From: a phage
Assembly (NCBI GenBank): GCA_025812035.1
Contig: GCA_025812035.1_4719.1
Direction: 5' to 3' (one strand)
Length of the DNA: 64,000 nt
Of this stretch, positions 1 through 53,438 are shown piece by piece; the stretch's first letter is position 1, and every line of letters starts with the position of its first letter. Below the pieces are notes generated by a model. That model was given only the letters and a program-made list of their open reading frames with translations. It did no database searches and was not told where the DNA came from. A program made the position numbers and the translations under genes.

Positions 1-1665
1 TGCCCAACCGGTTTGTTCCCAGCTACCAGACAGAACACGATCGATGATTTCGTGACGAGCGACAACACGCTGAGACATCGACATATCGGTACGGTCGAAG
101 CTGTCTTCCCATGCTTCTACGGTATCCGGGTTAGTGATGTTCATCATGTACAGATCGTCCATATCGCGAATATCGTGACGGTTACCATCCTGGTGGTTGT
201 AGTGACCCAGCGGGATACGGTTACCGGTAGCGTAGACCAGCGGTTGACCGTATTGATATTTCTTGCTGAAGCAGCCCAGGGTAGTATCATCGAAGGCACG
301 GAAGAGTGCTTTGTAACCTTCAGAGACTTCCCGAACATCAGCCTCAACATTACCCGTATAGATCTTCTCAGCCGCCGGGATCATACGCAACAGCCAGCTG
401 TATTCGCCTTCTTCCGGCACGTCGATAGAAATCAGCAGGGACGGATACAGTACCTGTTGCAGGAACTTGTAAATCTGCTCATTGGTTTGAGTAGACAGAT
501 CCAGCGGTGCGGTAACTTCCGGATCCAGCACCATCGCCAGAGCACCCGGGTTATGCGGACCGATACCACGAGCAGCGTTGCTGATTAAAGACTGCGCCCA
601 TGCCATGCCGCTGTTCAGCGTAGCAATGGTACCAATCAGACCCAATACAAAAGTATTCGGTGTGAATGCGTCCAGCTCCAGCGGGTAAGCGCTGGTCATC
701 ACGTAACGCGGCTGGTATTGTACAGTCGGCGGTACCGGATAACCGTTAACCAGAACAGGACCTTGGTTGAAGGTCGGGTTCTGCGGGCTGTAGGTCAGGT
801 CGATATAGCCGGTAGTTGCGACCAGACGCTGCTGGCTATCGTAATCGCTCATCGCTTGACGGATGCGGTTAGAGATAGTTACAGTGATGTCGGAACGCAC
901 TGGGTTACCAACGATATCGCTGTCCTGCATACCGCTGGTGTTATACTGAACGCTGCTGATCGGCTGATCGCTTGCCATCATGCCCAGGTTGAACTGCGGC
1001 AGGCCCAGTTTATCACCGAGACGGATTTCGATTGCGGTTTGGATTGCGTTATCTGCAGCAGACAGCAGGGTGGTTGCCAGGTGTGCAGATTCAGCGGTGA
1101 TTTCATTGGTCACCACAGCCAGACCAGCGATACGAACAGTACCATTAGCCTTGCCACCAATAGCCGCATACATTGCCGCCATGACTTCGTTGATGAACGT
1201 GCCGTTCAGGTTATCAACCCAGGTACGCGGTACCAGAATGTTACCATGCGGACCTTGTTCTTCACGACGCGGCAGCGGAGCCAAACCGGCAACCAGCGGA
1301 AGCACATAACCGAAGAAGTGGTTATGATCACCAACTTTCGCACCACTCATAACCACCAGGGTCGGATACGGTACACTGTACTGACCAGGATCGACAGTCA
1401 CCATGATGAAGTCGTCTTTAAAGCCTTTATCTTCCAGTTCTTTTTCCATCAGACGACGGAGGTTCAGTACTTGCTCAGAACCGGTGTTACGGCTAATACG
1501 ACGACTCAGTGTACGGTTGATCGTACGCATCGTATGAGTCACTTTAGGCTGGCCAGCAAAGTCTGCAGCGGTTTCCAGCGCTTCATCTGCACGTTGTGCG
1601 GTGCGGGTTTCAGCTGCACGAATTTCTACATTATCGTTACCGTTTTTACGTACGTCTAAGCCCAT
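1..1665 (-). CDS. Abundant protein, 3' end beyond window (555 codons visible); candidate chimallin-like nuclear shell protein, alternatively major capsid protein
   Basis: Open minus-strand frame from ATG at 1665 to window edge (checked at both ends and mid-gene); RBS AAGAGGAA; preferred-codon bias; early-promoter-like motif ~70 nt upstream. Missed by ORF track (no stop in window). Confidence 0.5.
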   Translation of the reverse strand, partial: MGLDVRKNGNDNVEIRAAETRTAQRADEALETAADFAGQPKVTHTMRTINRTLSRRISRNTGSEQVLNLRRLMEKELEDKGFKDDFIMVTVDPGQYSVPYPTLVVMSGAKVGDHNHFFGYVLPLVAGLAPLPRREEQGPHGNILVPRTWVDNLNGTFINEVMAAMYAAIGGKANGTVRIAGLAVVTNEITAESAHLATTLLSAADNAIQTAIEIRLGDKLGLPQFNLGMMASDQPISSVQYNTSGMQDSDIVGNPVRSDITVTISNRIRQAMSDYDSQQRLVATTGYIDLTYSPQNPTFNQGPVLVNGYPVPPTVQYQPRYVMTSAYPLELDAFTPNTFVLGLIGTIATLNSGMAWAQSLISNAARGIGPHNPGALAMVLDPEVTAPLDLSTQTNEQIYKFLQQVLYPSLLISIDVPEEGEYSWLLRMIPAAEKIYTGNVEADVREVSEGYKALFRAFDDTTLGCFSKKYQYGQPLVYATGNRIPLGHYNHQDGNRHDIRDMDDLYMMNITNPDTVEAWEDSFDRTDMSMSQRVVARHEIIDRVLSGSWEQTGWA

Positions 1666-1727
1666 TTGGGATTCCTCTTTTCTTAAACTTTATTAAATGA
1701 CGTCATTGAATCAGCTTCTACTCGCTC

Positions 1728-1809
1728 ATTCACCTAGGTAATATAACCCTGAAATTTTTTTCAATATTGGTGTAACCGTATTGAACGATATAAACCCCTA
1801 GGTGAATGC
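1728..1809. repeat. 12-bp perfect inverted repeat ATTCACCTAGGT ... ACCTAGGTGAAT flanking promoter motif A
   Basis: Arms at 1728-1739 and 1798-1809, 58-bp spacer. Confidence 0.4.
1735..1770 (-). promoter_or_regulatory. early-promoter-like motif, copy A
   Basis: Plus strand TAGGTAATATAACCCTGAAATTTTTTTCAATATTGG; minus-sense TATATTACCTA preceded by A-tract; ~70 nt upstream of the 1665 start. Confidence 0.4.
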
Positions 1810-1919
1810 TGCCGAGAAGCAACATTCTTTCTACATATAATCAGGATATGTCTGTAAACTTTTACTTCTCTTATTGAGAGTAACATCATATCCGCTTACT
1901 ACCTTCTTACGGAGTTCGT

Positions 1920-3014
1920 ATGTTTCGTGTTTTAAATAACCTCCCGCGAACATCATCGGGTGTGCAACCCATCCCTCAGAAAGACTATCTGATACGCGAA
2001 GTTCAAAGAAACCTACAAACAATCCAGAACCACTATCAGGGTTTTACCTTCGCGGTTCAGAGTGATCACATCCTTGCGTTGCTGCTCGCACAGCTCCCTA
2101 TGAGATACGACATCTCTGTACAAACTTACTACGACATGATTCTCGATCTTACACCAGAATTGGGTAATCGTGTTAAGTTGACAACATCGAGATACGCAGG
2201 TAAGTTATTCGACGGAGCTTTCTATCCGGGATTGCATGAAGCCATCATCGCAACCGGTGAAAGCCGTCTTATTTCACGGGATGTTCTTGACAACTGGCGT
2301 AATTGGTCACCGGTTAGAATCGTGACGCACCCGTACGCAAATCTTCGTTACATTCCTCTTCACCGAAAACAGGTTGAAGAAGGACGAGGTTTCGCGGTCA
2401 TCATGGTCGATGTACCTTTATTAGCATTACAGTATCGAATGTGGTCTTTGGTCATGGGCCATAACGTCGACGGTAAATGGGTGGTTAAAGAACCGGTTAC
2501 GAGCTTCCTTGCGAGTTTTCCATTGGTTAACGCATTATACTCACACAACGATGTTGTCATACGCAACCGTTGTTTGTGGGTACCTCCGGCTAAGAATCCA
2601 CTCAAGTCGCCGATTTACGTTAACGACCTGGATAACGTATTCAGTCAAGTCGTGCTGTCCGTACAACATCATTTATTACGAAGAAGACGAAGCTACACCG
2701 ACATGCTTAAACAGATACCGAGTTTATACGGGGATCAGTACCAAGCAACCCGAATGGGCTACACCGTCGATCTTCGACAAACCCGATGGGCAAGGGATCT
2801 AGGCTGTATGTCATTATGGCAGCAGCTCGTCACACTGCAAAACGTATCTGAAAGCGTCGGGTTCAGCAGTCAAATCGATAATGATCTGTACCGCGCCGCC
2901 GACCGGAGTCTGAAAGAAGGTAGCTGGGAATCCTCTCCGTTACCCGGCGATTTGCGGCGTGAAGTTATCGCACAGGTTGCCGACCTCTTAAAAATTCTTC
3001 CTGCTGGGACATAA
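1920..3014 (+). CDS. hypothetical protein
   Basis: 364-aa ORF, GGAG RBS before ATG 1920, followed by strong hairpin 3016-3070. Confidence 0.6.
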   Translation: MFRVLNNLPRTSSGVQPIPQKDYLIREVQRNLQTIQNHYQGFTFAVQSDHILALLLAQLPMRYDISVQTYYDMILDLTPELGNRVKLTTSRYAGKLFDGAFYPGLHEAIIATGESRLISRDVLDNWRNWSPVRIVTHPYANLRYIPLHRKQVEEGRGFAVIMVDVPLLALQYRMWSLVMGHNVDGKWVVKEPVTSFLASFPLVNALYSHNDVVIRNRCLWVPPAKNPLKSPIYVNDLDNVFSQVVLSVQHHLLRRRRSYTDMLKQIPSLYGDQYQATRMGYTVDLRQTRWARDLGCMSLWQQLVTLQNVSESVGFSSQIDNDLYRAADRSLKEGSWESSPLPGDLRREVIAQVADLLKILPAGT

Positions 3015-3015
3015 T

Positions 3016-3070
3016 CACCTCATCCCTTTCCTTGCATCCTCCCAACCCGTAAAGGGAAGGGAGGATGAGG
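3016..3070. terminator. bidirectional hairpin terminator (GTAA-capped family, copy 1)
   Basis: CATCCTCCC-AA-CCC-GTAAA-GGG-AA-GGGAGGATG between convergent genes. Confidence 0.5.
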
Positions 3071-3078
3071 GTATTATG

Positions 3079-5232
3079 TTACTCTGCGGCTTCTTGCTTC
3101 GGTAAATAACTTGCAGCGATATCTTGAGCTAACAATGTATTATTTTTATTCGAGATGAAAATACCGTAACTTTCCATCAACGCGTAATACGAACGAACAA
3201 GCGTAGAGATCAGTCGACGAATATCCATACCTTGAATAAAGATATCAGGAAGCCCGGAGGCTTCGATCACCGGTAATGGTATCGTTAAATTACTTATTGT
3301 TTTCTTATCGTTACGTACAATCCAATCGCGGAAACGTTGTTGTAACCCTTTATCCTCCCATGAATCAATCCAATCATTAAGAAGCGTTTTGTTCTTCGTC
3401 GCCAACGGCACACGAACCCCAACATAAGGAGGTTCGGAGCAATGGCCGTACGATTGAGCAAACACCTCTTCCCACATATCGTAAGACTGTTTCGTTACTG
3501 CAACATGTGGTTTCACTTTAACACGTGTTAAGAAATCGGGGTCACCTCGTTTCATTGACTCAACGATTTCGTTTTCTAACGAGATGATATCATCAAGAAC
3601 CAATCGAATACTGATCTTCTCGTTACGTAACAGCTTATCCATGATACCACACATCATCCGCTCAACACGTTGGACGATCATCTTCGGCGCTGATGCGTCG
3701 CGCATAACTGGGCCTTTCAATTCCAGCTTCGGTGGATTGATAGGAACCCCTTCACGCATGGTCATGTAACCGTAATAGTTTTTACCCATCGAGGTTAACG
3801 ACAGGATCAAGAACATATATTCGTTCTTCATTTCCATCACGTACATATGCTCTTTCGCCACACCGATATTACCAGAGCACATCGCCATCAGATGAACCGT
3901 GATCTGTGTAACCAGATAGATAAGCGTGTTGGCTAAGCGCGTCGAAACTGGATTGATCTCCATATTCCCAAATCGCCACTGAACCCACTCCTGACAGGTA
4001 AATACCGTTGAGTCGGTATCGGACAACACCCCCACTTCACGGATCGCTGATGGGAAAGCATAAACACCCGCCGGTTGGTTCTCGGTACGCCAGAACGCCA
4101 TAATCAAGTCAGCGTAACCTTGAATACGTTGCAACATTAATTTTGTCGTTGCTGCGGTAAGACGATAACCAAGTTCATTTCCTTTTTCTAGCGCGACGTA
4201 AATCGCTTCTCCATTCAAGAACTCCGTGCATTGTGCTGTAATCCATGCGACGGTGTTGTTATCCATGGAAGCAATAATGGCTTTAGCTTCTTCCATCGTT
4301 TCAACAGGTTCGGATGCCAGTTCACATAACGAGTCAAGAAAATGACGAACGAATTCAGGATTAAGCTCACGTAACGAGTACAGGTTATTGCTGTACATAT
4401 AGCAAGCGCGTTCCAACGGGGTTAAACCAGTGATTAGCTCCCGGATGACCAATTCTTTCTCTGGGTCGAAAGTGTACCGATGCAAGCATTTCGATACGTT
4501 AGCCCAAACCTCTTCCGGCGTAGGGTAATGCAGTTTGTATTTTACCATCACCTGCTCAATGGCGTTACGATCGCTATTGCGAACAATGCTTACGATGTTT
4601 TCAATTGCGATATCACAATCGTAATAATGGAAATTGCCTGCCAGGAAGCGTTCATTGTTCGCATTGGCCGAACCTGAAGCGCAGCGACATGTTGTTGTTA
4701 AACTCGGATGCGCAATCGGATTATAAAACGGATTAAACTTGGACGCCTGTGTTCCCGACAAACTGTTGTTATCTAACTTGGTGTTGGTTTGTCGTTTATC
4801 GTGTAGTTCAGCTTCGTCTTTACGTCCGTGTGCTTGTGCTATCGACATTTGTTTCTTTTGTTTCTTACGCAACTTACCGTTTTCAACCGCAAAGTCGCTT
4901 AGCACGCTGGAACGTGTCTCGCGTGGATAACAGTTAGCCCATACCGGCGTGATAATTAAATTATTTTCTTTAATATCGTTGAAATATTGACTGAACTTGA
5001 TGACTTCTTTTTCTCGATTTCCTTCGGTACGCTGTGTTAAAACAAGACAGTCGGGATCAACCATCCCGTATTTTCCGCCAGGACGTACCGTATCAAGAAC
5101 AAACTGCAGCGCTTCCTGCTGCGATATCCCACGCATGCGCATTAAGAACAGGGTATAATCCTGCACCGCTTCTTTGGTCATATCCAACGTACGACCGTAT
5201 CCGTTTTCATCGTAAAAGAACGGATTTTCCAT
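3079..5232 (-). CDS. putative RNA polymerase beta-prime-like C-terminal subunit
   Basis: 717 aa; SGSANANNERFLAG resembles beta-prime SGARGS..RQLAG motif; GLTPLE resembles bridge-helix region GLTPQE; GGAGGA RBS. Confidence 0.4.
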   Translation of the reverse strand: MENPFFYDENGYGRTLDMTKEAVQDYTLFLMRMRGISQQEALQFVLDTVRPGGKYGMVDPDCLVLTQRTEGNREKEVIKFSQYFNDIKENNLIITPVWANCYPRETRSSVLSDFAVENGKLRKKQKKQMSIAQAHGRKDEAELHDKRQTNTKLDNNSLSGTQASKFNPFYNPIAHPSLTTTCRCASGSANANNERFLAGNFHYYDCDIAIENIVSIVRNSDRNAIEQVMVKYKLHYPTPEEVWANVSKCLHRYTFDPEKELVIRELITGLTPLERACYMYSNNLYSLRELNPEFVRHFLDSLCELASEPVETMEEAKAIIASMDNNTVAWITAQCTEFLNGEAIYVALEKGNELGYRLTAATTKLMLQRIQGYADLIMAFWRTENQPAGVYAFPSAIREVGVLSDTDSTVFTCQEWVQWRFGNMEINPVSTRLANTLIYLVTQITVHLMAMCSGNIGVAKEHMYVMEMKNEYMFLILSLTSMGKNYYGYMTMREGVPINPPKLELKGPVMRDASAPKMIVQRVERMMCGIMDKLLRNEKISIRLVLDDIISLENEIVESMKRGDPDFLTRVKVKPHVAVTKQSYDMWEEVFAQSYGHCSEPPYVGVRVPLATKNKTLLNDWIDSWEDKGLQQRFRDWIVRNDKKTISNLTIPLPVIEASGLPDIFIQGMDIRRLISTLVRSYYALMESYGIFISNKNNTLLAQDIAASYLPKQEAAE

Positions 5233-5293
5233 AAATCCTCCAAAAGTTATTTAGACTGTCTACATCATCTCGTATATCTGTTAAAAAAGAAGG

Positions 5294-5334
5294 ACGGCAT
5301 AAAAAGAACCGATCCAGCCGAAGCCAGATCGGTT
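5294..5334 (-). terminator. hairpin plus U-tract with TATGCCGT module
   Basis: Stem AACCGATC/GATCGGTT; minus-sense followed by CTTTTTATGCCGT. Confidence 0.5.
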
Positions 5335-5530
5335 TAAATGGATAATAACTGACAGAAAGATATCGATGATGTTCGTGAAACAAGATCTTCTCTCGTGTAC
5401 ATTGATGCCAGATCAGAGGGAGGTTGTAGCACGAGAGGTGGTTCGCCAAAGAAGGAATAAACACGCGAACCTATCTTAGTTTCACTGATGGCACTAACCA
5501 CTCAAAATATATAGTACTGTATGTAAAAGT

Positions 5531-5944
5531 TTACTGATTAATCAAGTCGTTAGCAACGATCTTGGTGTAACCTGCTTGATTGAGAATTTGATTAATTTTC
5601 GTCACGTCGGTCGCATCCTCAATAATGATGCTGGGTTTATAGATCAACGTCTTAGTAACGATGATTGTACTCTCCTTAATCCAAGGAATCCCTAAAATTA
5701 CATACTCGCCATCCGCAGTGATGACCTCAACGTAGTTGTACTTCGTCGGATCGTTCGGTACACTAGATGGGAGTCGGGAATAAATCTGTTGATGTATAGC
5801 GTCTACATCGCGGCCGTTGCGTACAGCCGTACGATAGTTGTATACGGCACTAATTTCTACTCCGTTGAAGTTAACCCCAAGTTCTGAAGCGTACACGTCA
5901 AAACTCACAACAGAGCCAATCTTTTCTAAATCAGAAGCTGGCAT
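5531..5944 (-). CDS. hypothetical protein
   Basis: 137-aa ORF, weak RBS. Confidence 0.45.
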   Translation of the reverse strand: MPASDLEKIGSVVSFDVYASELGVNFNGVEISAVYNYRTAVRNGRDVDAIHQQIYSRLPSSVPNDPTKYNYVEVITADGEYVILGIPWIKESTIIVTKTLIYKPSIIIEDATDVTKINQILNQAGYTKIVANDLINQ

Positions 5945-5959
5945 AATAGCACCCTTTAT

Positions 5960-6355
5960 TTAAAAAATGTATTCATATCCGAAAGCCGTCGCTGACCAAA
6001 CTCGGATAGATGATAGTGTTCCGCCACGATAAAACGTTTTTGTGAACTCCATATCCTGGACAACACGATAATAGACACGTCCGATGATACGTACAATAAG
6101 GTATCGCGGTAACGATCGCTCCTCGCAGTACTCATCGATAAAGTCATCGTCGATATCCGATAAGACAACATCTGCGATTTCTTGCAGTAGGTTCCTCATC
6201 AGCATCTGCCTTCCTTCGGTACCCCATCCAGACAAACAGTAATCATCTTCTGCCTGACTATAGATGTCGTTAACCGCCTGTTCGAGCAGCTGCTCAAGAT
6301 AGTAGTCATCGCGTTTTATAACGTGGCGACGGCGCTCAATGGCGTATTTTTCCAT
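5960..6355 (-). CDS. hypothetical protein
   Basis: 131-aa ORF in minus-strand operon. Confidence 0.45.
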   Translation of the reverse strand: MEKYAIERRRHVIKRDDYYLEQLLEQAVNDIYSQAEDDYCLSGWGTEGRQMLMRNLLQEIADVVLSDIDDDFIDEYCEERSLPRYLIVRIIGRVYYRVVQDMEFTKTFYRGGTLSSIRVWSATAFGYEYIF

Positions 6356-6804
6356 CCTGTGTTTCTCTTGTTTGGCGTATGTATTAACGACGCCACAGTC
6401 TTATCTGGATCGTCCCACAACGCACGACGAAAACTGGATACTACCATAACGGTAGGATAGATTTGCACAACCTCCCACCCGTAACGATGCGCGTTAGTCG
6501 TACGTCCGACATTAAACAAACATAGCTGATTTAAGAAACAAAGCTGCATCTTCGTAAACAACATGGTATCTTCGCGTTTAACGTATCCGAGAATATAAGC
6601 ATTCTCGAACGCCTCACGCGACAAGACGGGACGATTAAGATACCGCAACGCTAACACCAGCAACGTCGTTATACGCAACGGATCTTCCGGGTCATTCATG
6701 CTGTTCAGCTCAGCTTGTAACCAGTCAGGAATAGTAACCGTCAGACGATAGGTATCTGTTCCGCGATCAACCACATTCAACGTTGAAAAAGGCAACATAT
6801 CCAT
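6316..6804 (-). CDS. hypothetical protein
   Basis: 162-aa ORF, GAAGGAA RBS before ATG 6804. Confidence 0.45.
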   Translation of the reverse strand: MDMLPFSTLNVVDRGTDTYRLTVTIPDWLQAELNSMNDPEDPLRITTLLVLALRYLNRPVLSREAFENAYILGYVKREDTMLFTKMQLCFLNQLCLFNVGRTTNAHRYGWEVVQIYPTVMVVSSFRRALWDDPDKTVASLIHTPNKRNTGWKNTPLSAVATL

Positions 6805-7342
6805 GAATTCCTTCTATCTCGAGGTTATTCTCGCCTGTCTTCGGTAATAACCCACTGGCTGTTAACATCTGTGTCATCGAGTAGTCAAAACACGGAAATA
6901 TAAGGTTAACGGTTTCCTGGATCGCATCAACATAACTATAAATGGCTTCATAGTACTCACCGTCATGATCCACGCTAACCAGGTTCTGGCACAGTTCTTC
7001 GCTTATCATTTCATATACCGGCGGATAAAACGAATGAAATGGTCGCTGCATACGTAACGACCAGTACTCGTACGTTGTATACTGAAGCACGTCATAAGCC
7101 GATACGTTAATGCGATCGAAGAAAGCGTACTTGTCCATGTGCTGGTACAGCATCGCCAGCACGGTTTCCAAGCACACTGATATCCGTACACCGTCATCTT
7201 TTCCGTTAAGGAAATTAGGTTTCTGCCGATAGCGTACAAATGCTGACGGCTTTGATTGTACTATTCCACCACCAACCATAACGTCATACTCGTATCTAAC
7301 GTAAAATTGAAATGCCACCAATCTTCTACACGTGGGATCCAC
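6767..7342 (-). CDS. hypothetical protein (start uncertain)
   Basis: 191-aa ORF; listed start is GTG without clear RBS; internal ATG at 7279. Confidence 0.4.
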   Translation of the reverse strand: MDPTCRRLVAFQFYVRYEYDVMVGGGIVQSKPSAFVRYRQKPNFLNGKDDGVRISVCLETVLAMLYQHMDKYAFFDRINVSAYDVLQYTTYEYWSLRMQRPFHSFYPPVYEMISEELCQNLVSVDHDGEYYEAIYSYVDAIQETVNLIFPCFDYSMTQMLTASGLLPKTGENNLEIEGIHGYVAFFNVECG

Positions 7343-7746
7343 GTACGAAGGATCTGGTTAACTTCGCTTCGCATTACCGATAAACGACAACGAAAGTCAA
7401 ACTTCTCTTCATGACCGTAGTCTTCATGCAAGAAAACTTCATCCAAAACGAACTCAAGTTGCATGTCGACATCGCGACCCGAGATATTTCGTTTATACAG
7501 ATACAGTTCAATCGTGTCGTAAAGCAGTGTATGAATATCATAATTTCCGTTCGGTGAGAAGTAAGGTAATCGCTCATCGAACATCGTAAACAGATATTCA
7601 CTGTAGTTTAATAACGGGATGATGTACCGACGTCCTGTCTGTGGTGTGCGAATATGTATCGAAACCTGACTTGGACGCGGAATAACCGACGGCTTAGAAT
7701 CGTCTCTCTGAAATTGCTCTAAAGATCGCAACAAAGGTGGCCGCAT
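7261..7746 (-). CDS. hypothetical protein
   Basis: 161-aa ORF, GGAGAG RBS. Confidence 0.45.
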   Translation of the reverse strand: MRPPLLRSLEQFQRDDSKPSVIPRPSQVSIHIRTPQTGRRYIIPLLNYSEYLFTMFDERLPYFSPNGNYDIHTLLYDTIELYLYKRNISGRDVDMQLEFVLDEVFLHEDYGHEEKFDFRCRLSVMRSEVNQILRTWIPRVEDWWHFNFTLDTSMTLWLVVE

Positions 7747-8323
7747 TGTAACTCTCCAACGCCCAATTATAAGGCCCTTCTAACATGTGTTCCCATACGT
7801 GAATAAACTCACTACCGAAGACAGGCTCCAGCGCCATGGTAAGATTCGTAAGTTCTGACGCAGCCACGTGGTAAGCATCGACATGCCTATCCATCGACGG
7901 ATCGTCTTCATTGAAAATACGTTCTGTGTCGCCAGCCCGTTCAATAAGTTCGATGATGAGATCTGTCCATGTCTCGTGACACGTCATCGTTTCCTGTTCT
8001 CGACTTAGTATGCCGATGTCTGCGTGAACGCTGGACTCGAACCGGTCTAAAAGGACCCGAAGAACGTGCACCTTGTCGATGTATTTCACCGTTATCCAAG
8101 AAAGCGGTTGCCATCGACCCAGCATCCATCCGGTACTCGGGAACCCCAAACTCATATAGTACGGGTTGCACGGGACCGAGGACGGAGCGACGTTGTTTAA
8201 ATCGTTCCTTAAGGGCAAGGCCCTGTTTAATGTAAACGGGTTCATTGGCGAGTTGTTCTGCTTTTCGTTTTGCGTGAGCCAATCGAAGTTCTTCCAATTG
8301 CCCAAGCCATTCGAATTGTTCAT
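7694..8323 (-). CDS. hypothetical protein; possibly the 3' part of a frameshifted gene with 7941-8918
   Basis: C-terminal ~150 aa look protein-like, but no convincing internal start/RBS. Confidence 0.35.
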   Translation of the reverse strand: MNNSNGLGNWKNFDWLTQNEKQNNSPMNPFTLNRALPLRNDLNNVAPSSVPCNPYYMSLGFPSTGWMLGRWQPLSWITVKYIDKVHVLRVLLDRFESSVHADIGILSREQETMTCHETWTDLIIELIERAGDTERIFNEDDPSMDRHVDAYHVAASELTNLTMALEPVFGSEFIHVWEHMLEGPYNWALESYNAATFVAIFRAISERRF

Positions 8324-30095: not shown

Positions 30096-30575
30096 TCAGT
30101 CTTTCAGCAGCTCAGCTGCATACGCACTGATATTGTCGCGGATATGCTTAACCTGAGTTGTTGGGAAAGATTTCTTATACGCGGTGGTCAGACGTCCGTA
30201 AACCTGTTTCTTCTCGTTAGAGCCGAAACCAACTTCAGCGCTACGTTGAATTGTTGCAGACACAACGTCTTTACCCAGCGGCAGTGTAACAGAAACAACG
30301 TCAACCTGCTTGTTATCCGCCATGAACTGCGCACCAACGCGACCAACTGCCAGGCCGTGAGCCAGACCGATATCAGTGGTCAGCTTCTGCGCTTTTTCCA
30401 GGATTTCTTTTTCTTCCGGTGTTACCAGAGTACCCAGGAAATCACTGCCTAACTTCTGGCTACCGGATTCGTCCAGTTTGATACCAGCTGCGATTTTATC
30501 AGAAAGCGCCTGAACTTCCGGACGTACGTTAGAAGTGGTTTCAGTTGCTACGGTGGTTTCTACAGCTTCAGACAT
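30096..30575 (-). CDS. acidic hypothetical protein (likely early, abundant)
   Basis: 159 aa, TGGAGT RBS, preferred-codon bias; early-promoter-like motif copy B ~120 nt upstream. Confidence 0.55.
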   Translation of the reverse strand: MSEAVETTVATETTSNVRPEVQALSDKIAAGIKLDESGSQKLGSDFLGTLVTPEEKEILEKAQKLTTDIGLAHGLAVGRVGAQFMADNKQVDVVSVTLPLGKDVVSATIQRSAEVGFGSNEKKQVYGRLTTAYKKSFPTTQVKHIRDNISAYAAELLKD

Positions 30576-30694
30576 GTTAATACTCCAATTAGTTTTTTCG
30601 ATCGATCAAAAGGATAAAATCAGAAGATTCTTTCTTCATAGGGAAAACACAAGTCGGTTAAGGTTTACTTCTCAAACTCCTTGCGTTCTATCAG

Positions 30695-30730
30695 TTAGGT
30701 AATATAGACCTCAACTTTTTTCCAATAATG
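30695..30730 (-). promoter_or_regulatory. early-promoter-like motif, copy B
   Basis: TTAGGTAATATAGACCTCAACTTTTTTCCAATAATGC; lies between two minus genes, which fixes the functional strand as minus. Confidence 0.4.
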
Positions 30731-35978: not shown

Positions 35979-38900
35979 TTATTTAGCGTCGTTAAAATAA
36001 ATATCAACAGCTCGTTCCGTTGCGTAGAGGAGACCAAGGTTCACAGTCCCAACCACTTCCGGCGAAGCGATGATACGGTTAGCGATACTGGTGCCACTGA
36101 AGATAGCATCAAGGGTGTGCCCGTCTTCGGTTTTGTTCACACCATGACCCACGGAAGAGACAACGGATTTCGCTTGTGCTGCGAAGGTACCCTTATCACC
36201 CATCCCCGCACCAAGGTCGTAACGCATGAAAATACGGATGGCGATCTGGTTCTCGCCTAACGGATTACCGTCTATTCTCACGTTACTGTTGTTGATACGC
36301 CCCGTCGTTGCTTCATTGAGTTTCAGTTCCTTGACGCGTTTAGCTCGCGCTTTATCCGCATCGCCGACGAGCGCCGCCATGGTTTCACTCATATCCTCAA
36401 TCTGAGCGCGGTACAGCACATCGATCTGTACAACTTCACCATGAACGTCAGCACGTGGGTTATACTGACTCATACGACGTAATGCTTCAACAGCTTCCTG
36501 ACTCTCATCACTCAGATCGGTTGCGATCGGTTCTTCCAGTGTTGCAAGAATCGTTCGAGGTTCAACATGATCGCCGATTTTTACGAGACCACGAATGTTG
36601 AGATGGGCGTCAACAATGAGCGTACGGCTCTTAATCGATGGTGTTACGAGACGATCGGCAAGATTGTCGAAGATATACGAACTGTCCTCGTGCGTCTCTG
36701 GAATATCCAGAATACCGACAAGAGACAGGACGCCTGCGCGCCAAACAACCTGACCTGGGTTCCACCAATCGCGTTTAAAATAAAGACGATGGAAAACCAC
36801 CACGTCCTGATCCTTAACGCGATCCCCAACTTTATAATCGGTAATGAGGTCGTGAGGATAATACTTACCTGGTCCTTTCCCGATTATCGTACCGAGTTGG
36901 AAAACCTCTTCTCCTAACTCTGGATCGTCGTATTGTACCGTAAGCGCAGTTTTGGTGACCTTCTTAACAACACCATCGCCTTGGGCAGCTGCGGCGAAGA
37001 GTTTACCGACACGATGCGCGATAACAGTCTCGCCACCCGTACGCCATGGTTGTACATCGTAACCTTCAGCAGCAATCATGCGGTTGTGTTGGATCCCGAC
37101 GAAGACCAGACGTTTTCCATCGTCACGGTCTACAGCCGGAACAGCTAACGCCGATGTACTCATTACCGATGAGATGCCGTCTGTCTTTTCATCGAATGGT
37201 CGTGTTTCACCATATACAGACACGATATTAGCATTAGGTGCCAGATAGGCAGAAATACCTACATCCCCGCTATCCTTCGTACCTTCTGATACAATACCGA
37301 CATCTGACTTATCGTATTCACGATCGCGTGCGCGGCGAAGCGATGTCTTTGAGCGACCCCCGATACCGGTCATCGTTGCTTCTTCACCCTGCTTGATATC
37401 CAGCATCGGGTTGGTTTCATCGATCACGATGGACGCGCTGTCGTCGAGAATTTGGTTCCAGACACTCACTGGACTGATTGAGATTTTCTGTCGGTTTCCT
37501 TGACTGCTGTTCTCGTTTTGACGAATAGCACCAACCAGGTCCTTATACACCAGCTCAGCGAACTTATCGTACGTTTTAAAACGTTGGTAGTTCACATCGT
37601 TCGTGTTAGGTGCCCAATCATCCAGAAGCAGTTCAACAGCACGCAGCAACAACATGGCGAAATCGGTAGGTTCTCCCATGTTCTGTAATAGCGTACGGCT
37701 TACCGGATCGACGAAAAGACGCTCCATGAGTTCAAGTTCGCGTAAATGGCGAACCTTAAGTCCAGCACCATCGACAACGTTAAAATAGATATCTCGATTG
37801 TCAAAAGCACCGCGAGCGTAACCGATGTAGTTACGGTATTCGTTAAACCCACCCATCAACAACGTCGTCATGCGATCGTCTTTACTGAAGATCAAACTTT
37901 CGTCGTCGAAGCTCACCGCGAACTCGTCTGATGCTAAACCCATACGAGAGCCACGAGGAACAGTACGATAATTCGCTTTAAGATGTTCTAATAACGGGGT
38001 AAGCCCACCCAGATAACTTAGAACAACGCCAACCGGAATACGTACGCCCATGAATTCAAGATCGGCAGCTTCGATTGGCATCTTAGCCGCATTGATGCCG
38101 AAGAAATCAGGGAACGTCCCTACAGGTGTTGGTGTTTGTCCTGACTGACAGATATAGAGCTGGTTGCGTTCATCGATCGCTAAGAATTCGCCCGACGTAT
38201 TACGCGCGAACGTCAGGAGTCCTTCGGCTAACTGTTCGTTGAACCGATCTTCCCCAATGAACTCCGGTAACGTTTTTATATCGAGACGTATATCCCAATC
38301 AGCGAATTGGATTTGGGTATAATTGCGCGCAAGCACGGCGAAGTAATACGGGACTTTGACAGCCGGATCAAAGACGTTACCACGTTTTAACGTTGTTAAG
38401 GGCGAGGACTTATCGTAATACATCGCCGTAAGTTGACGTGTTAGCCAACGACCAGCGTTATTAACGACGCGCTCTGAACGTTTAACGAACACCTTACCGT
38501 AGGCGGTACTCAACGCAACTTCGGATGACGATACCTTTCTAATAGGTTTATCAACGCGCTGTTTACGCATCCGGTACTTGATACCGTTAACAACATAAAT
38601 GCCATCCTTACGAACCTTCGGCAACATCACCGGGAACGTGGTTGGGACACCGCCTACAGGAGCCAGTTTAATCGTGATGACTTGATAATCCCCCATCACG
38701 TCAACAACATCTTCAACTTTATATCCCGTAACAGGGTAACCTGCTTGCTGTACCGCAACAACGGCAGCTGCGATGTCCTTTTGCATTACATGTTCAACGT
38801 AATGTTTATCCCACACCGCGAGCGTTGATTTACATAAGCTCTTATCAACGATAACATCCGCTTCCGGCATAACCTTTGCGGGAGCTAGTTTCGCGGCTTT

Positions 38901-40325
38901 TGGTTTAACTTCAACATATTCAGCGAGCGTTAATCCAGAACCGTCAGGTGCTTCGATTTCGTGGATGGCGTCAGCATTACGCATCGCTGCTTTATATTGG
39001 ACGCCACTTAACTGACCTGCATCCGCCAGATCGCTCGCACGCACCAACACCGCATCCGATAACGACTGAATATACTCACCATGTGTTTTTGGTAACGTTG
39101 CTGCGTCAAAGACATCAACCTTTTCTTCGGCGGTATCGTCGGGGACGACTTCGAAGAGATCGTCGGTAATGTCCTGATCTTCATCAGGTTGGAAATCCGG
39201 TTGTACTTCTACCCCAGGTACTTCACGAACATCTTCAAACGTGCGCTCTACGATTGCGTTCCACGCATCAGCATCATCGTCTTCATCCGACCCACCGACC
39301 AACTCCGCTTCTAACTCATCGGGGTCAAGAACAGTGGCCAGATCCTCACCGTTAGGAAGCACGACATCGCGATCATCGTACTCCGCATCCGGGCTGTCCG
39401 CAAGAATATCTCGCTCTTGACGAAGAACCTGTTCCTCTTCTTGTTTCTGTTCTTCTTCATTCGCGCTCTGCGACCACAGACGTGTTACCGCCATCATCCA
39501 ACGACGCTGGAAGGTTTCAAGTGTCGTTTTATCGAGTTCTTCCCCTTCCTTTACGAGCCCGGTACGCCATTCCTCCAGCAGACCGAGATTCAGCGTAAAG
39601 AAGTACACACCGTCTGTAAATACAACGTTAAGCTTATCCAGCGTGGCTCTGTCTAACGAAGCCATCGTGCTGTTCTCACGATCGGTTCCCAACCAGCGGA
39701 AGAAGTCAAAGAACGACAGCTCCTCCGGTGTGGCGAAATTCATGAGGTTGTTACGGGTCGGTGCCTGTTGCGTGGTACGCATCAACGAAATCTTCGGCAA
39801 TGTTGACGGTATACGGAACAACAAAAAGTGTTGACGATCGCTTTGCTGGGCGATTTCGTTGGCTTTCGACCAAATTGTTTTACGTACGTTGAACCACTCA
39901 TCGTACCAACGGGTGAGCGTTGGACGATAGATGTACATGTGGTTAAGATGCGCGTAGTTAGCAACGATCTGCGCGTTGATGTTTTTCTCCACCGTGCTTA
40001 GATCGGTAACCAAACGAAAACGACGATGTGATGCACGATAATCCAATTTCGCTCGTGGAAGTTGGAATCGTTGATCGCGTCGAGGTGCGCCCTGTTTGGT
40101 TGCGAGATCATCAGCAAACGAAATCCATAGTTGAGCATTTTCTTTACTCAGCATGTATTCGTTTTCTGGAGGACCTATCAATGATGGATCCGTTGCGGTG
40201 TAATGATAGACAGCATAACGCGGCAGCTGCAATAGCTGCACTAAACGTAATCTCGGTGACAATAGCTCTTGGTATCGTCTGACGCCAAACTGTCGGTAGT
40301 AATCAAGGTATTTAAGTTTTGCCAT
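35979..40325 (-). CDS. multisubunit RNA polymerase beta-like subunit
   Basis: 1448 aa; GIGGRSKTSLRRARDRE...VGIVSEGTKDSGDVGIS resembles RpoB GPGGLTRERAGFEVRD...ETPEGPNIGL; GDKGTF...EDGHTLD resembles RpoB GDKMAGRHGNKG region. Confidence 0.6.
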   Translation of the reverse strand: MAKLKYLDYYRQFGVRRYQELLSPRLRLVQLLQLPRYAVYHYTATDPSLIGPPENEYMLSKENAQLWISFADDLATKQGAPRRDQRFQLPRAKLDYRASHRRFRLVTDLSTVEKNINAQIVANYAHLNHMYIYRPTLTRWYDEWFNVRKTIWSKANEIAQQSDRQHFLLFRIPSTLPKISLMRTTQQAPTRNNLMNFATPEELSFFDFFRWLGTDRENSTMASLDRATLDKLNVVFTDGVYFFTLNLGLLEEWRTGLVKEGEELDKTTLETFQRRWMMAVTRLWSQSANEEEQKQEEEQVLRQERDILADSPDAEYDDRDVVLPNGEDLATVLDPDELEAELVGGSDEDDDADAWNAIVERTFEDVREVPGVEVQPDFQPDEDQDITDDLFEVVPDDTAEEKVDVFDAATLPKTHGEYIQSLSDAVLVRASDLADAGQLSGVQYKAAMRNADAIHEIEAPDGSGLTLAEYVEVKPKAAKLAPAKVMPEADVIVDKSLCKSTLAVWDKHYVEHVMQKDIAAAVVAVQQAGYPVTGYKVEDVVDVMGDYQVITIKLAPVGGVPTTFPVMLPKVRKDGIYVVNGIKYRMRKQRVDKPIRKVSSSEVALSTAYGKVFVKRSERVVNNAGRWLTRQLTAMYYDKSSPLTTLKRGNVFDPAVKVPYYFAVLARNYTQIQFADWDIRLDIKTLPEFIGEDRFNEQLAEGLLTFARNTSGEFLAIDERNQLYICQSGQTPTPVGTFPDFFGINAAKMPIEAADLEFMGVRIPVGVVLSYLGGLTPLLEHLKANYRTVPRGSRMGLASDEFAVSFDDESLIFSKDDRMTTLLMGGFNEYRNYIGYARGAFDNRDIYFNVVDGAGLKVRHLRELELMERLFVDPVSRTLLQNMGEPTDFAMLLLRAVELLLDDWAPNTNDVNYQRFKTYDKFAELVYKDLVGAIRQNENSSQGNRQKISISPVSVWNQILDDSASIVIDETNPMLDIKQGEEATMTGIGGRSKTSLRRARDREYDKSDVGIVSEGTKDSGDVGISAYLAPNANIVSVYGETRPFDEKTDGISSVMSTSALAVPAVDRDDGKRLVFVGIQHNRMIAAEGYDVQPWRTGGETVIAHRVGKLFAAAAQGDGVVKKVTKTALTVQYDDPELGEEVFQLGTIIGKGPGKYYPHDLITDYKVGDRVKDQDVVVFHRLYFKRDWWNPGQVVWRAGVLSLVGILDIPETHEDSSYIFDNLADRLVTPSIKSRTLIVDAHLNIRGLVKIGDHVEPRTILATLEEPIATDLSDESQEAVEALRRMSQYNPRADVHGEVVQIDVLYRAQIEDMSETMAALVGDADKARAKRVKELKLNEATTGRINNSNVRIDGNPLGENQIAIRIFMRYDLGAGMGDKGTFAAQAKSVVSSVGHGVNKTEDGHTLDAIFSGTSIANRIIASPEVVGTVNLGLLYATERAVDIYFNDAK

Positions 40326-40328
40326 GGG

Positions 40329-41975
40329 TTAGGCTCCACGAGGTCCCGTTAAGTTGCGTAATAGGAACGCAACCGTATCGTAACCAATATCGATGTTGAA
40401 TTTATTTTTACCACTTACCCAGAAAGCACGTTTCTTGTGCGAGTTGGTAATTTCGTCAATGGCTTCCATGGAATAAAGAACGTTAACCGAGACCGTATCG
40501 CCATCAAAGTCCCCACCAAGTCCGGCGAGGTACGGGGCTGGAACAATAGTCGTTTCTACGAACGAAGCATTAGGTAACCAATCTGGGTATTCCCATGCGA
40601 TAAATCGCTCATCCGTTATTGGTTCCCAGTTACTATCCAGTTCGGTTTTCGGTTTTGCTGCAACGGTCGTACGCGCATAACAGGTTAACGGAATGACGGA
40701 TTGCATACCCGATACCGGATAACGTGTTACCATCGCTGCCAGGTTATTCCAGTATTTATATCCAGCAATATAGATAAGCTCAGTATACGTAATGGGGTGA
40801 ACATCCGCCCCGGGTTTGTTAAGCATCTCTGGGGGTAATTCACTCATACCACGGAATAACCGAAACGAATCATTATTCACATAGACCAGGCAGAGATAAC
40901 GTCCATTGACCATGATAGGTTCGTTACGCACACCTGGATCGCTTAAGGTGTTCAGTAAACGTTCTATCCCATCCCATGTTGTAAAGTCATCGATGGTGTC
41001 TGGATCAAGCGTGACGCGTTCACGTTCCATCGTTTCGGTATCAATAAGTTCAACTTCTGTAACATCACGGACAAATATTTCCTGCAAAATCCCCGTACGT
41101 AACGCATGTTGCGTTACTGGGAGAGCAGCTTTACTCATCTGGTATAACCCTAACTGAACTGCAGTACAGGAAGGCTGGTTAGGCGACCCTAGTACCTCCG
41201 TTGTGGGGTTAATTGCTGAAATAACGTTACGGGTTGAGTTCCAAACACGACGTGAGCCGAACTTACCTTGGAAGATCCCTTTCTTACCTTGGAACATATC
41301 CAACAACAAAGCGTAGATGTCGTTAAATGTTCTCTGTAAGCTCCAGCGCTGACCGTCGTAAACGGGATCCGAATAATCTTTTAATCCATCCGGGACGGTG
41401 TTAGAAATTGCCAGGAAACGACGATACAACTCTGTGATTTCTTGCTCGCTTTCATACCCGCCTTCTTTTACTTCTATTTCACGTAAACCCGCAGGTAAAA
41501 CCAGTAGATGACGAGTCATCGCTTTGAACATGTTCTCTTCGACAACCTTGATTCGTAGCTCTCGTTGAGCTGAACCCGTTGAAACGAACTTGATATCAGC
41601 GACGTGTTGTGCAAAGAACCCGTATCCTGTTTGTCCTGTTAGCGCATCGGACGCAACGAAGTCACGTTGTTCAGGATCCCAACGCGCGTACGCCTTCCCC
41701 GACATGATATCACCGTAGAGGTGTTTTAGTCGAATGAGACGATCGTAGATGACAGGGTGTAGGATTTCAACTTTGCATTCAATCACCGCAAATCGACGGT
41801 CTCGATCTTCGCTACCCGCACTACCAAAGATGGTGTATGAATAGAAACCGTCATCGTGGAAATTACCGGTGCTTGGATCACGAATGCTCATGCTCGTGAT
41901 CTTGGGGAGAAAACGTAACTGCTGTTTATCGAGGTGTAAAATGCTAATATTAAACGGCTCTCTGACTTTAGCCAT
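40329..41975 (-). CDS. multisubunit RNA polymerase beta-prime-like N-terminal subunit
   Basis: Start trimmed to ATG 41975 (AAAGAGGAG RBS); RRFAVIECKVEILHPVIY resembles beta-prime RMGHIELAAPVAHIWF; GKFGSRRV...NVISAIN resembles [27 protein letters not shown] catalytic motif near C-terminus. Confidence 0.65.
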   Translation of the reverse strand: MAKVREPFNISILHLDKQQLRFLPKITSMSIRDPSTGNFHDDGFYSYTIFGSAGSEDRDRRFAVIECKVEILHPVIYDRLIRLKHLYGDIMSGKAYARWDPEQRDFVASDALTGQTGYGFFAQHVADIKFVSTGSAQRELRIKVVEENMFKAMTRHLLVLPAGLREIEVKEGGYESEQEITELYRRFLAISNTVPDGLKDYSDPVYDGQRWSLQRTFNDIYALLLDMFQGKKGIFQGKFGSRRVWNSTRNVISAINPTTEVLGSPNQPSCTAVQLGLYQMSKAALPVTQHALRTGILQEIFVRDVTEVELIDTETMERERVTLDPDTIDDFTTWDGIERLLNTLSDPGVRNEPIMVNGRYLCLVYVNNDSFRLFRGMSELPPEMLNKPGADVHPITYTELIYIAGYKYWNNLAAMVTRYPVSGMQSVIPLTCYARTTVAAKPKTELDSNWEPITDERFIAWEYPDWLPNASFVETTIVPAPYLAGLGGDFDGDTVSVNVLYSMEAIDEITNSHKKRAFWVSGKNKFNIDIGYDTVAFLLRNLTGPRGA

Positions 41976-42217
41976 GGAGACACTCCTCTTTACCACCACC
42001 GGCGGCGGTATCATCTGAACACACGAGAGACGTAATGGGTGATGGCGTCACCCATCGCTTCCTTGCTTGAGGCGAGGAAGTTATTAGGTTACGTACCTGT
42101 TTGATAAAATCAAACAGGCGATGTGTGAAGTTACGCTTCAACATTATCAATGCCGAAGGTAAACTTCGTGCATCACGTTCCAACGTAACATGGGAACGTA
42201 TCGAACTGGAGGTATAC

Positions 42218-52279: not shown

Positions 52280-52792
52280 TTAAACTTCTTCGTTTTCTGA
52301 ACCTAATGATTCAGCATCTGGATCGTCAACAGGAATTGTTGCATCAAAATACCGTTTCGTGTGCGTGGTTGTATATCCTACGCTATCTGTGATGGAAATC
52401 GTAAACGTGACTTCTCTCGCACGGATTAAGCGTAGTTTATTCATGAAGTTACGGAACGGCATCGATCCCCGATTCAACTCCTTAATGACGTTTCCTCGAA
52501 TACTGGAAATGTCTTTATTCGTCTTATCAGGATGTCGTTTCTTCACATCACGCATGTGTCGGGTAATATACGAATTGAGCTGATTTGCGCCGATCCCTCT
52601 CTCCGTATAAATCTGCAACAGGAACTCCGTAAGGAAATCCTGTCTACCCGTAGGCGTCCAGAAATTGTTACCGTGATTGTAGTTAGTCGCTCGTCCTCGA
52701 TTGCTTTGAGGACTTTCATCATCGTTTTCGTCGCGGCGCTTAAGCGGATTAATGCGTGCGCGAAAAGAGACTTCATTATATTTATCTATCAT
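52280..52792 (-). CDS. hypothetical protein
   Basis: Start trimmed to ATG 52792 (ATGA overlap with upstream stop). Confidence 0.45.
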   Translation of the reverse strand: MIDKYNEVSFRARINPLKRRDENDDESPQSNRGRATNYNHGNNFWTPTGRQDFLTEFLLQIYTERGIGANQLNSYITRHMRDVKKRHPDKTNKDISSIRGNVIKELNRGSMPFRNFMNKLRLIRAREVTFTISITDSVGYTTTHTKRYFDATIPVDDPDAESLGSENEEV

Positions 52793-53304
52793 AATACACC
52801 AGTGTACTGACTGAGTGCGAAGGTTAGGAGTTCGCAACAGTCTCTCGCTAGTTTCCTTGTTTTGCGTAATCCATAAGCCGCATCCAAATCGTCACGTTCC
52901 GCCAGCGCGTCTAACCACGTCGCAAGTATGCGTCCATACTCGATAACGTCACGCATGAGAACGTCGAACTGGATAACACGACCATCGGCATCAGCAAGCC
53001 AACGATTGAATGTGATTTGTGGTGCTAGTATTGCATATGTTCTCTCCTCTAATGCTATTACGTTTATGTTGCCTTCGTTATCGAACGCTTGATGCCAACG
53101 GCGAAGGTCAAGCATCAGCGACTCAGCGTCCATATACCACAACGGTAAATACGTTTTACGTGCAACGCGTATATCGTAGATGTTGTGAACCCAAGACGTT
53201 GTTTTGTAAAGCAACAAGAGTTCGTTTAACCGTTGCCTATCGTCTTGAAACGTCTTCCTTTTATACCGTTGGAATGCACGCCTCAAGAAAAAGCGATGTA
53301 ACAT
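52789..53304 (-). CDS. hypothetical protein (likely early)
   Basis: 171 aa, TAGGTGA RBS; early-promoter-like motif copy C ~90 nt upstream. Confidence 0.5.
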   Translation of the reverse strand: MLHRFFLRRAFQRYKRKTFQDDRQRLNELLLLYKTTSWVHNIYDIRVARKTYLPLWYMDAESLMLDLRRWHQAFDNEGNINVIALEERTYAILAPQITFNRWLADADGRVIQFDVLMRDVIEYGRILATWLDALAERDDLDAAYGLRKTRKLARDCCELLTFALSQYTGVL

Positions 53305-53392
53305 GGCATCACCTATGTATCATTCTTGCAGGCATCAATGAAACCATCACAAGAAGGTAACGTTTTACGTCGCCTTCATGACAGTCATCATG

Positions 53393-53425
53393 AAGGTAAT
53401 ATAGTCCTGTTATTTTTTTCAATCC
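53393..53425 (-). promoter_or_regulatory. early-promoter-like motif, copy C
   Basis: AAGGTAATATAGTCCTGTTATTTTTTTCAATCC; overlapped by 9-bp inverted repeat CCTTCATGA/TCATGAAGG (53373-53396). Confidence 0.4.
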
Positions 53426-53438
53426 GGAGAATGTAATA

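What the first reader, a model, noticed from the sequence alone, without database searches (positions are those of the whole stretch)
1..1810. Highly biased partial gene at the window edge, missed by the ORF track; candidate chimallin or capsid protein
A minus-strand frame stays open from ATG 1665 to position 1 (555 codons, no stop), with strong RBS and preferred codons. The two plus-strand ORFs listed there are antisense artefacts. Its upstream motif family is shared with other putative early genes, which favours an abundant early product such as a nuclear-shell protein over a late capsid protein.
Basis: partly seen in the sequence, partly recalled or inferred. Interest (0 to 1): 0.6.

Follow-up and report, generated by a model that had tools for sequence, protein, structure and literature searches.

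The report
Truncated chimallin gene of Goslar-like phage

Summary
The minus-strand frame from ATG 1665 to base 1 is open for 555 codons and is cut by the window edge. It is 96.8% identical to Goslar chimallin (solved structure PDB 7SQT). It passes the Pfam chimallin model (71.9 bits; cutoff 27) and lies in conserved synteny; window 1-8000 is 93.8% identical to Goslar at the DNA level. Three related contigs all encode a 631-aa protein, so about 76 C-terminal codons lie beyond the edge.

The gene is under strong purifying selection (dN/dS 0.045-0.074). It has the strongest codon bias in the window (ENC 35.3 against a median of 52.7; E. coli CAI 0.60 against 0.28).

The two plus-strand ORFs are antisense artefacts in the codon-register frame. 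They exist because the gene uses only two TTA codons and no CTA or TCA.

The shared upstream motif is real. A 36-nt element containing TATATTAC sits 66-101 nt upstream of the ATG. The window has 3 copies and Goslar has 12, all on the minus strand. It matches the predicted early (virion RNA polymerase) promoter consensus of other chimalliviruses.

The capsid alternative is rejected. This is a known gene in a new Goslar-like lineage, so interest is low.

The parts
1..1665 (-). chmA (chimallin, major phage-nucleus shell protein), codons 1-555 of an expected 631. It is cut by the window edge, not truncated in the phage.
   Evidence: Open frame. 96.8% amino-acid identity to Goslar ChmA / PDB 7SQT. 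Pfam PF25677 and PHROG 4795 match. dN/dS 0.045-0.074 against three lineages. The orthologs in L001-L004 are all 631 aa.
1673..1679 (-). Ribosome-binding site AAGAGGA (GAGG at 1677-1674), 8 nt before the ATG.
   Evidence: Sequence read. Invariant in all four lineages.
1666..1730 (-). Predicted 5' leader of the chmA mRNA, about 65 nt. It has no significant secondary structure.
   Evidence: 100% invariant across four lineages and part of the longest invariant run (132 nt, 1777-1646) in a 4.67-kb alignment. Fold z-score -0.88. The transcription start position is inferred, not measured here.
1731..1766 (-). Predicted early (virion RNA polymerase) promoter: TATTGAAAAAAATTTCAGGGTTATATTACCTAGGTG. Core at 1731-1754, TATATTAC at 1738-1745, upstream A-tract at 1755-1766.
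   Evidence: 3 strong copies in the window, all on the minus strand, scoring at least 37.6 bits against 13.9 for the next site. 12 strong core copies in Goslar, all on the minus strand. Matches the published predicted early-promoter consensus of 201phi2-1, OBP, N1M2 and phiKZ (PMC7058600 Table 2). No sigma-70-like promoter in the intergenic region.

Best explanation
Window 1-1665 (minus strand) encodes the N-terminal 555 residues of ChmA (chimallin) of a Goslar-like E. coli jumbo phage (genus Goslarvirus, Chimalliviridae).

By analogy with the near-identical Goslar protein, the full 631-aa product self-assembles into a square lattice of tetramers. An N-terminal segment and two C-terminal segments dock onto neighbouring protomers. 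The lattice forms the proteinaceous phage nucleus, which encloses the replicating phage DNA and excludes host nucleases. The window contains the N-terminal tail and docking segment, the N-terminal domain and most of the C-terminal domain. The last ~76 codons, which include the C-terminal docking segments CTS1 and CTS2, lie beyond base 1.

Expression is inferred to start at a chimallivirus early promoter (1731-1766) read by the injected virion RNA polymerase. This would give a ~65-nt leader with a strong ribosome-binding site. Host-adapted codons support very high early translation.

Shown here: the open frame, the identity, family membership, purifying selection, codon bias, the motif family and its conservation. 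Inferred from the literature on Goslar, 201phi2-1 and phiKZ: assembly mechanism, early timing, and which polymerase uses the promoter.
For: - Open frame of 555 codons.
- 96.8% identity over the full length to Goslar nuclear shell protein and PDB 7SQT (phmmer 1220 bits).
- Pfam chimallin 71.9 bits against a cutoff of 27. PHROG 4795 nuclear shell protein, 5e-43.
- Weaker matches to PhiPA3 PhuN and the 201phi2-1 and phiKZ chimallins.
- Synteny and 93.8% DNA identity to Goslar 171234-179234, with the DNA polymerase gene and the divergently transcribed gp245 upstream of chmA; in Goslar an nvRNAP subunit gene follows chmA, but that side lies beyond the window edge.
- Full-length 631-aa orthologs in three IMG/VR contigs.
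- dN/dS 0.045-0.074.
- ENC 35.3 and CAI 0.60, at the extreme of the window.
- Promoter motif family.
- Promoter, leader and first codons form the longest invariant run in the alignment.
- Literature: structure and assembly, PMC9365700. Goslar ChmA is essential and is transcribed early from the EPI vesicle, with its start-site sequence shown from -91, PMC10541120. Early-promoter motifs of RNAP-encoding jumbo phages, PMC7598289 and PMC7058600.
Against: Nothing contradicts the identification. The limits are:
- The C-terminal 76 residues, including the segments essential for lattice assembly, are not in the window. Their integrity in this particular phage is inferred from relatives.
- Promoter use and the exact transcription start are not measured for this phage. 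The published Goslar start site is in a figure I could not read; only the legend was available.
- The 18 amino-acid differences from Goslar have not been tested functionally.
Confidence: 0.97

Rival explanations
1. The frame encodes a phiKZ-like major capsid protein or another late structural protein.
For: Only generic features fit: a long, highly codon-biased gene in a jumbo-phage genome.
Against: No capsid family matched in Pfam or PHROGs; the only hits are chimallin and nuclear shell protein. The fragment is 96.8% identical to a solved chimallin. The Goslar major head protein is a different gene, at 43439-45661.
Confidence: 0.005
2. The real genes are the plus-strand ORFs 13-588 and 718-1659, and the minus-strand open frame is the artefact. 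A variant: both strands code.
For: The plus-strand ORFs are long (191 and 313 aa) and have low ENC values of 36-37.
Against: They lie in the codon-register antisense frame, and their length is explained by the near absence of TTA, CTA and TCA codons in chmA. Their low ENC simply mirrors the sense bias, and their E. coli CAI is ordinary (0.26-0.31 against 0.60). Relatives carry internal stops in 4 of 6 comparisons, with dN/dS 1.1-4.3 against 0.05-0.07 for the sense frame. They have no PHROG match. Goslar's annotation has no gene there.
Confidence: 0.01
3. The gene is chimallin, but in this phage it is a decayed or truncated copy (a pseudogene) rather than being cut by the window edge.
For: The stop codon and the last 76 codons cannot be seen in the window.
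Against: The frame is intact for all 555 visible codons, with dN/dS of about 0.05-0.07. The promoter, ribosome-binding site and leader are perfectly conserved. All three related lineages have the full 631-aa gene. ChmA is essential in Goslar (PMC10541120).
Confidence: 0.015

Closest known systems
Goslar chimallin ChmA (YP_009820873; 'gp189' in the structural literature, RefSeq tag HOV27_gp246; PDB 7SQT/7SQU/7SQV)
   Same: 96.8% amino-acid identity over residues 1-555. Same start codon, same gene neighbours and same orientation. The promoter, leader and ribosome-binding site are identical from 1777 to the ATG.
   Different: 18 substitutions, 14 of them in two patches: 76-94 (6) and 439-474 (8). 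DNA identity is 94.2% over the gene plus upstream region and 93.8% over 8 kb, so this is a distinct Goslar-like lineage. The C-terminal 76 residues are not visible in the window.
Chimallins of 201phi2-1 (gp105, PDB 7SQQ), phiKZ (gp54, PDB 8IGG) and PhiPA3 (PhuN, PDB 8FNE)
   Same: Same Pfam family, PF25677. Homology is detectable over residues ~62-520 (E = 8e-9 to 2.5e-15). Goslar and 201phi2-1 protomers are reported to superpose at 1.8 A r.m.s.d., with the same NTS/CTS1/CTS2 docking principle (PMC9365700).
   Different: Only about 21-24% sequence identity. CTS2 is reported to be shorter in Goslar, with different contacts (PMC9365700). The host is E. coli rather than Pseudomonas.
Predicted early (vRNAP) promoters of chimalliviruses: phiKZ TATATTAC; 201phi2-1 ...TTTRARR-BTATATTACDWHDGTG; OBP and N1M2 ...TTTYARRYAKATATTATYWWADTG
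   Same: The window motif TTTCAGGGTTATATTACCTAGGTG has the same blocks in the same spacing: TTTYA-RR, TATATTAC, then GTG 4 nt later. Copies lie at the heads of operons, and all are on one strand (PMC7058600 Table 2; PMC7598289).
   Different: The chmA copy belongs to a subclass with an upstream TTGAAAAAAA tract and AGG in place of ACG. Goslar has 4 of 12 in this subclass: chmA, gp214, gp200 and gp040 by RefSeq tags. I found no published description of the Goslar consensus in the searchable library.

Membership tests
Chimallin / ChmA (Pfam PF25677, PHROG 4795) | Sequence passes the curated family model | tested here: met
   PF25677: 71.9 bits against a gathering cutoff of 27, E = 4e-20, covering residues 20-517. 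PHROG 4795 'nuclear shell protein', E = 5e-43.
Chimallin / ChmA (Pfam PF25677, PHROG 4795) | Homology to an experimentally solved chimallin | tested here: met
   phmmer 1220 bits against PDB 7SQT (Goslar chimallin), 537 of 555 residues identical. Weaker hits to 8FNE, 7SQQ and 8IGG.
Chimallin / ChmA (Pfam PF25677, PHROG 4795) | N-terminal tail and docking segment (NTS) ahead of the N-terminal domain | tested here: met
   Residues 1-75 are identical to Goslar ChmA except N7K. The NTS lies in this stretch by homology to 201phi2-1 residues 48-61 (PMC9365700). The exact Goslar NTS numbering was not retrieved.
Chimallin / ChmA (Pfam PF25677, PHROG 4795) | C-terminal docking segments CTS1 and CTS2, required for lattice assembly | not testable with these tools
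   They lie beyond base 1 of the window. The three related contigs and Goslar all carry them within a 631-aa protein.
Chimallin / ChmA (Pfam PF25677, PHROG 4795) | Encoded in a chimallivirus genome context (two multisubunit RNA polymerases, PhuZ and so on) | tested here: met
   Window 1-8000 is 93.8% identical to Goslar. The Goslar region colinear with the window encodes PhuZ, RNA polymerase subunits, terminase and tail sheath.
Chimallin / ChmA (Pfam PF25677, PHROG 4795) | Self-assembly into a shell around phage DNA in infected cells | not testable with these tools
   Shown for Goslar ChmA by cryo-EM and cryo-ET (PMC9365700) and by knockdown (PMC10541120). Not tested for this allele.
Chimallivirus early (vRNAP) promoter | Conserved AT-rich motif containing TATATTAC, recurring upstream of operons on the coding strand | tested here: met
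   3 copies in the window and 12 in Goslar, all on the minus strand, each scoring at least 24.8 bits. Eleven lie just upstream of an annotated minus-strand gene start; one (49718-49741) falls inside the annotated small ORF gp047.
Chimallivirus early (vRNAP) promoter | Transcription starts a few nucleotides downstream, early in infection and without new protein synthesis | not testable with these tools
   The literature reports a chmA start site in 5-minute RNA-seq, with the displayed sequence beginning at -91, which is inside the motif (-101 to -66) (PMC10541120 legend). The exact nucleotide could not be read.
phiKZ-like major capsid protein (HK97 fold) | Match to a capsid family model or to a known jumbo-phage major head protein | tested here: not met
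   No capsid family appears in the Pfam or PHROG results. All 101 tblastn records that matched are chimallin loci where annotated.

The most novel reading that the evidence does not exclude
The chmA regulatory region may be more than a generic early promoter. The 132-nt stretch covering the A-tract, the promoter, the whole unstructured 5' leader and the first codons is the most conserved segment of the locus, with zero changes in four lineages whose synonymous divergence is 0.2-0.3. The A-tract/AGG promoter variant is shared by only four Goslar genes, two of which are the two most codon-biased genes of the window. This could mark an 'immediate, maximal-output' subclass of virion-polymerase promoters. 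Alternatively, the leader may carry a signal for mRNA handling, such as export from the early-infection vesicle or translation priority.
Probability: 0.2. Interest if true: 0.4.

Novelty: already known. Interest (0 to 1): 0.1.

Why it matters
Chimallin is the defining protein of nucleus-forming phages, but this copy is 97% identical to the Goslar protein, whose structure, assembly and essentiality are already published. The finding therefore adds no new biology.

Its practical value is in annotation:
- It fixes the identity of the window as a Goslar-like chimallivirus. At about 94% DNA identity to Goslar over the first 8 kb, below the usual 95% species line, it may be a separate species, though only that stretch was compared.
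- It shows that the ORF track misses edge-cut genes and reports antisense shadows of highly biased genes.
- It provides a clean, conserved early-promoter motif that can be used to mark early operons across the rest of the window.

Tried and rejected
- **Capsid hypothesis.** Rejected: there are no capsid-family hits.
- **Plus-strand ORFs as genes.** Rejected on frame register, stops in relatives, dN/dS above 1 and no family hits.
- **Sigma-70 promoter or intrinsic terminator in the 254-nt intergenic region.** Neither was found.
- **Structured 5' leader (riboswitch- or thermometer-like).** The fold is no better than shuffled sequence, z = -0.88.
- **Source of the window among complete E. coli assemblies.** No match. 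Among deposited phages only Goslar matches.
- **Bare TATATTAC as a test.** 4 copies against 2.1 expected, so it is not significant alone. Significance comes only from the extended motif.
- **Diversifying selection in the two variable patches.** pN/pS is 0.27, which indicates relaxed constraint but not positive selection. The patches were also defined after seeing the data.

Full report
**Observation**

The minus strand from ATG 1665 to base 1 translates into 555 residues without a stop. At the window's stop-triplet frequency this has a chance probability of about 1.6e-11. The start is unambiguous: two in-frame stops lie nine codons upstream and there is no alternative start codon in between. 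An AAGAGGA ribosome-binding site ends 8 nt before the ATG. The ORF lister omits the frame only because it does not report ORFs that run off the source. It does report the plus-strand ORFs 13-588 and 718-1659.

**Identity**

- The fragment is 96.8% identical over its whole length to the Goslar 'nuclear shell protein' (YP_009820873, 631 aa). It scores 1220 bits against PDB 7SQT, deposited as Chimallin.
- It passes Pfam PF25677, Chimallin_Phikzvirus (71.9 bits, cutoff 27), and PHROG 4795, 'nuclear shell protein' (5e-43).
- It has weaker but significant matches to the PhiPA3, 201phi2-1 and phiKZ chimallins.
- No capsid family matches. The Goslar major head protein is a different gene elsewhere in the genome.

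**Context**

Window 1-8000 aligns in one piece to Goslar 171234-179234 at 93.8% identity, with the same genes in the same order. IMG/VR holds three Goslar-like contigs with the gene. One is Goslar itself; the others are 98% and 96% identical at the protein level. In all of them ChmA is 631 aa. The window therefore shows codons 1-555 and lacks about 76 codons. By the published domain map, the missing part includes the C-terminal docking segments CTS1 and CTS2 that link tetramers (PMC9365700). No complete E. coli assembly contains this sequence.

**Selection and codon bias**

Against the three other lineages, dS is 0.21-0.30 and dN/dS is 0.045-0.074. The gene has the lowest ENC in the window (35.3; median 52.7) and the second-highest E. 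coli CAI (0.60; median 0.28). Codon choice is extreme: 38 of 47 Leu are CTG and 28 of 32 Arg are CGT, and there are no GGA, GGG, ATA, AGA or AGG codons.

**Antisense ORFs**

Both plus-strand ORFs are in the frame that is the reverse complement of the chmA codons. Stops in that frame can come only from sense TTA, CTA or TCA. The gene has two TTA and no CTA or TCA, which places stops only at 586-588 and 1657-1659. In relatives these frames acquire internal stops in 4 of 6 comparisons, with dN/dS of 1.1-4.3. They match no PHROG.

**Upstream motif**

The sequence TATTGAAAAAAATTTCAGGGTTATATTACCTAGGTG lies at 1766-1731, which is -101 to -66 from the ATG.

- A position matrix finds exactly three strong copies in the window, all on the minus strand: 1731-1766, 30692-30727 and 53389-53424. 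They score at least 37.6 bits, against 13.9 for the next site. The bare octamer TATATTAC alone is not significant.
- Scanning the whole Goslar genome with the 24-nt core (TTTCACGnCTAyATTACyTnnGTG) gives 12 copies of at least 24.8 bits. All are on the minus strand. Eleven lie just upstream of annotated minus-strand gene starts; one (49718-49741) falls inside the annotated small ORF gp047.
- The blocks and spacing match the predicted early-promoter consensus of 201phi2-1, OBP, N1M2 and phiKZ (PMC7058600, Table 2). A review states that such motifs, where tested by transcript profiling, are the early promoters attributed to the virion RNA polymerase (PMC7598289).
- For Goslar itself, ChmA is essential. 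Its mRNA is made from the injected genome inside the early-infection vesicle, which carries the virion polymerase. Its start site was mapped in 5-minute RNA-seq, with the displayed sequence beginning at -91, inside my motif (PMC10541120).
- No sigma-70-like promoter or intrinsic terminator lies in the intergenic region.

**Conservation of the control region**

In a four-lineage alignment of 4.67 kb, the longest invariant run (132 nt, window 1777-1646) covers exactly the promoter, the leader and the first codons of chmA. In the same alignment only 78% of chmA third codon positions are invariant, and another intergenic region (3015-3078) is only 65% invariant. The leader has no significant secondary structure.

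**Mechanism**

The assembly mechanism is inferred from the Goslar and 201phi2-1 work (PMC9365700, PMC10541120). The injected virion RNA polymerase starts at the early promoter. The mRNA is translated very efficiently, helped by a strong ribosome-binding site and host-preferred codons. ChmA tetramers then link through NTS, CTS1 and CTS2 into the shell of the phage nucleus.

**Verdict**

The object is a near-identical ortholog of a structurally and genetically characterised protein. The only new elements are that the phage is a distinct Goslar-like lineage and that the early-promoter motif, with an A-tract subclass, can be written down explicitly. Interest is low.

Noticed in passing
window 30096-30575 (-), promoter copy at 30692-30727: A 159-aa ORF has the highest E. 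coli CAI in the window (0.634, ENC 36.6) and is driven by the same A-tract promoter subclass as chmA. It is 99.4% identical to the Goslar hypothetical protein HOV27_gp214. It has no Pfam or PDB match and only PHROG 9746 (unknown function). It is probably a very abundant early protein of unknown role.
   Followed up: partly
window 53389-53424 (-), upstream of ORF 52789-53304: This is the third copy of the A-tract early-promoter variant. It heads the ortholog of Goslar HOV27_gp200 (171 aa), which has no family match. My crude ORF 53309-53524, which overlaps the motif, is probably not a gene.
   Followed up: partly
window 1805-1827 (-): A conserved hairpin, GAAUGUUGC-UUCUCG-GCAGCAUUC, lies about 40 nt upstream of the chmA promoter in the divergent intergenic region. 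It is stronger on the minus-strand RNA (-13.5 kcal/mol, z = -2.85) than on the plus strand (-9.3, z = -1.57). No U-tract follows it, so it is not a canonical terminator. Where the window has A at 1810, the other three lineages have G (A-U against G-U). Its role is unknown.
   Followed up: partly
chmA codons 76-94 and 436-474 (window about 1384-1440 and 244-360): 16 of the 26 amino-acid positions that vary among the four Goslar-like lineages fall in two short patches making up 10% of the length. There pN/pS is 0.27, against 0.03 elsewhere, and pS is also raised (0.37 against 0.15). This suggests tolerant surface loops or local recombination. The patches were defined after seeing the data.
   Followed up: partly
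Goslar genome (L006-L010): 2553, 15053, 43252, 49718, 86691, 113783, 142786, 160777, 166055, 172964, 201930, 226681: Twelve strong copies of the predicted early promoter are all on the minus strand. I found no description of the Goslar consensus in the searchable literature. The list could serve as an early-operon map.
   Followed up: partly
window 1920-3014 (+): This gene is transcribed divergently from chmA (PHROG 3938, unknown function; weak match to a 'virion structural protein' PHROG). It is the only plus-strand gene in the first 9 kb of the crude ORF map. It has no early-promoter motif, which fits a different temporal class.
   Followed up: no
Goslar 169269-169645 and 211817-212245 (L009, L010); window counterpart of the second near 40.3-42.0 kb: Goslar's RNA polymerase subunit genes are annotated with group I introns and an HNH endonuclease. 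In the window the corresponding region appears as ORFs 35979-40325 and 40329-42014, and it may differ in intron content. I did not examine this.
   Followed up: no
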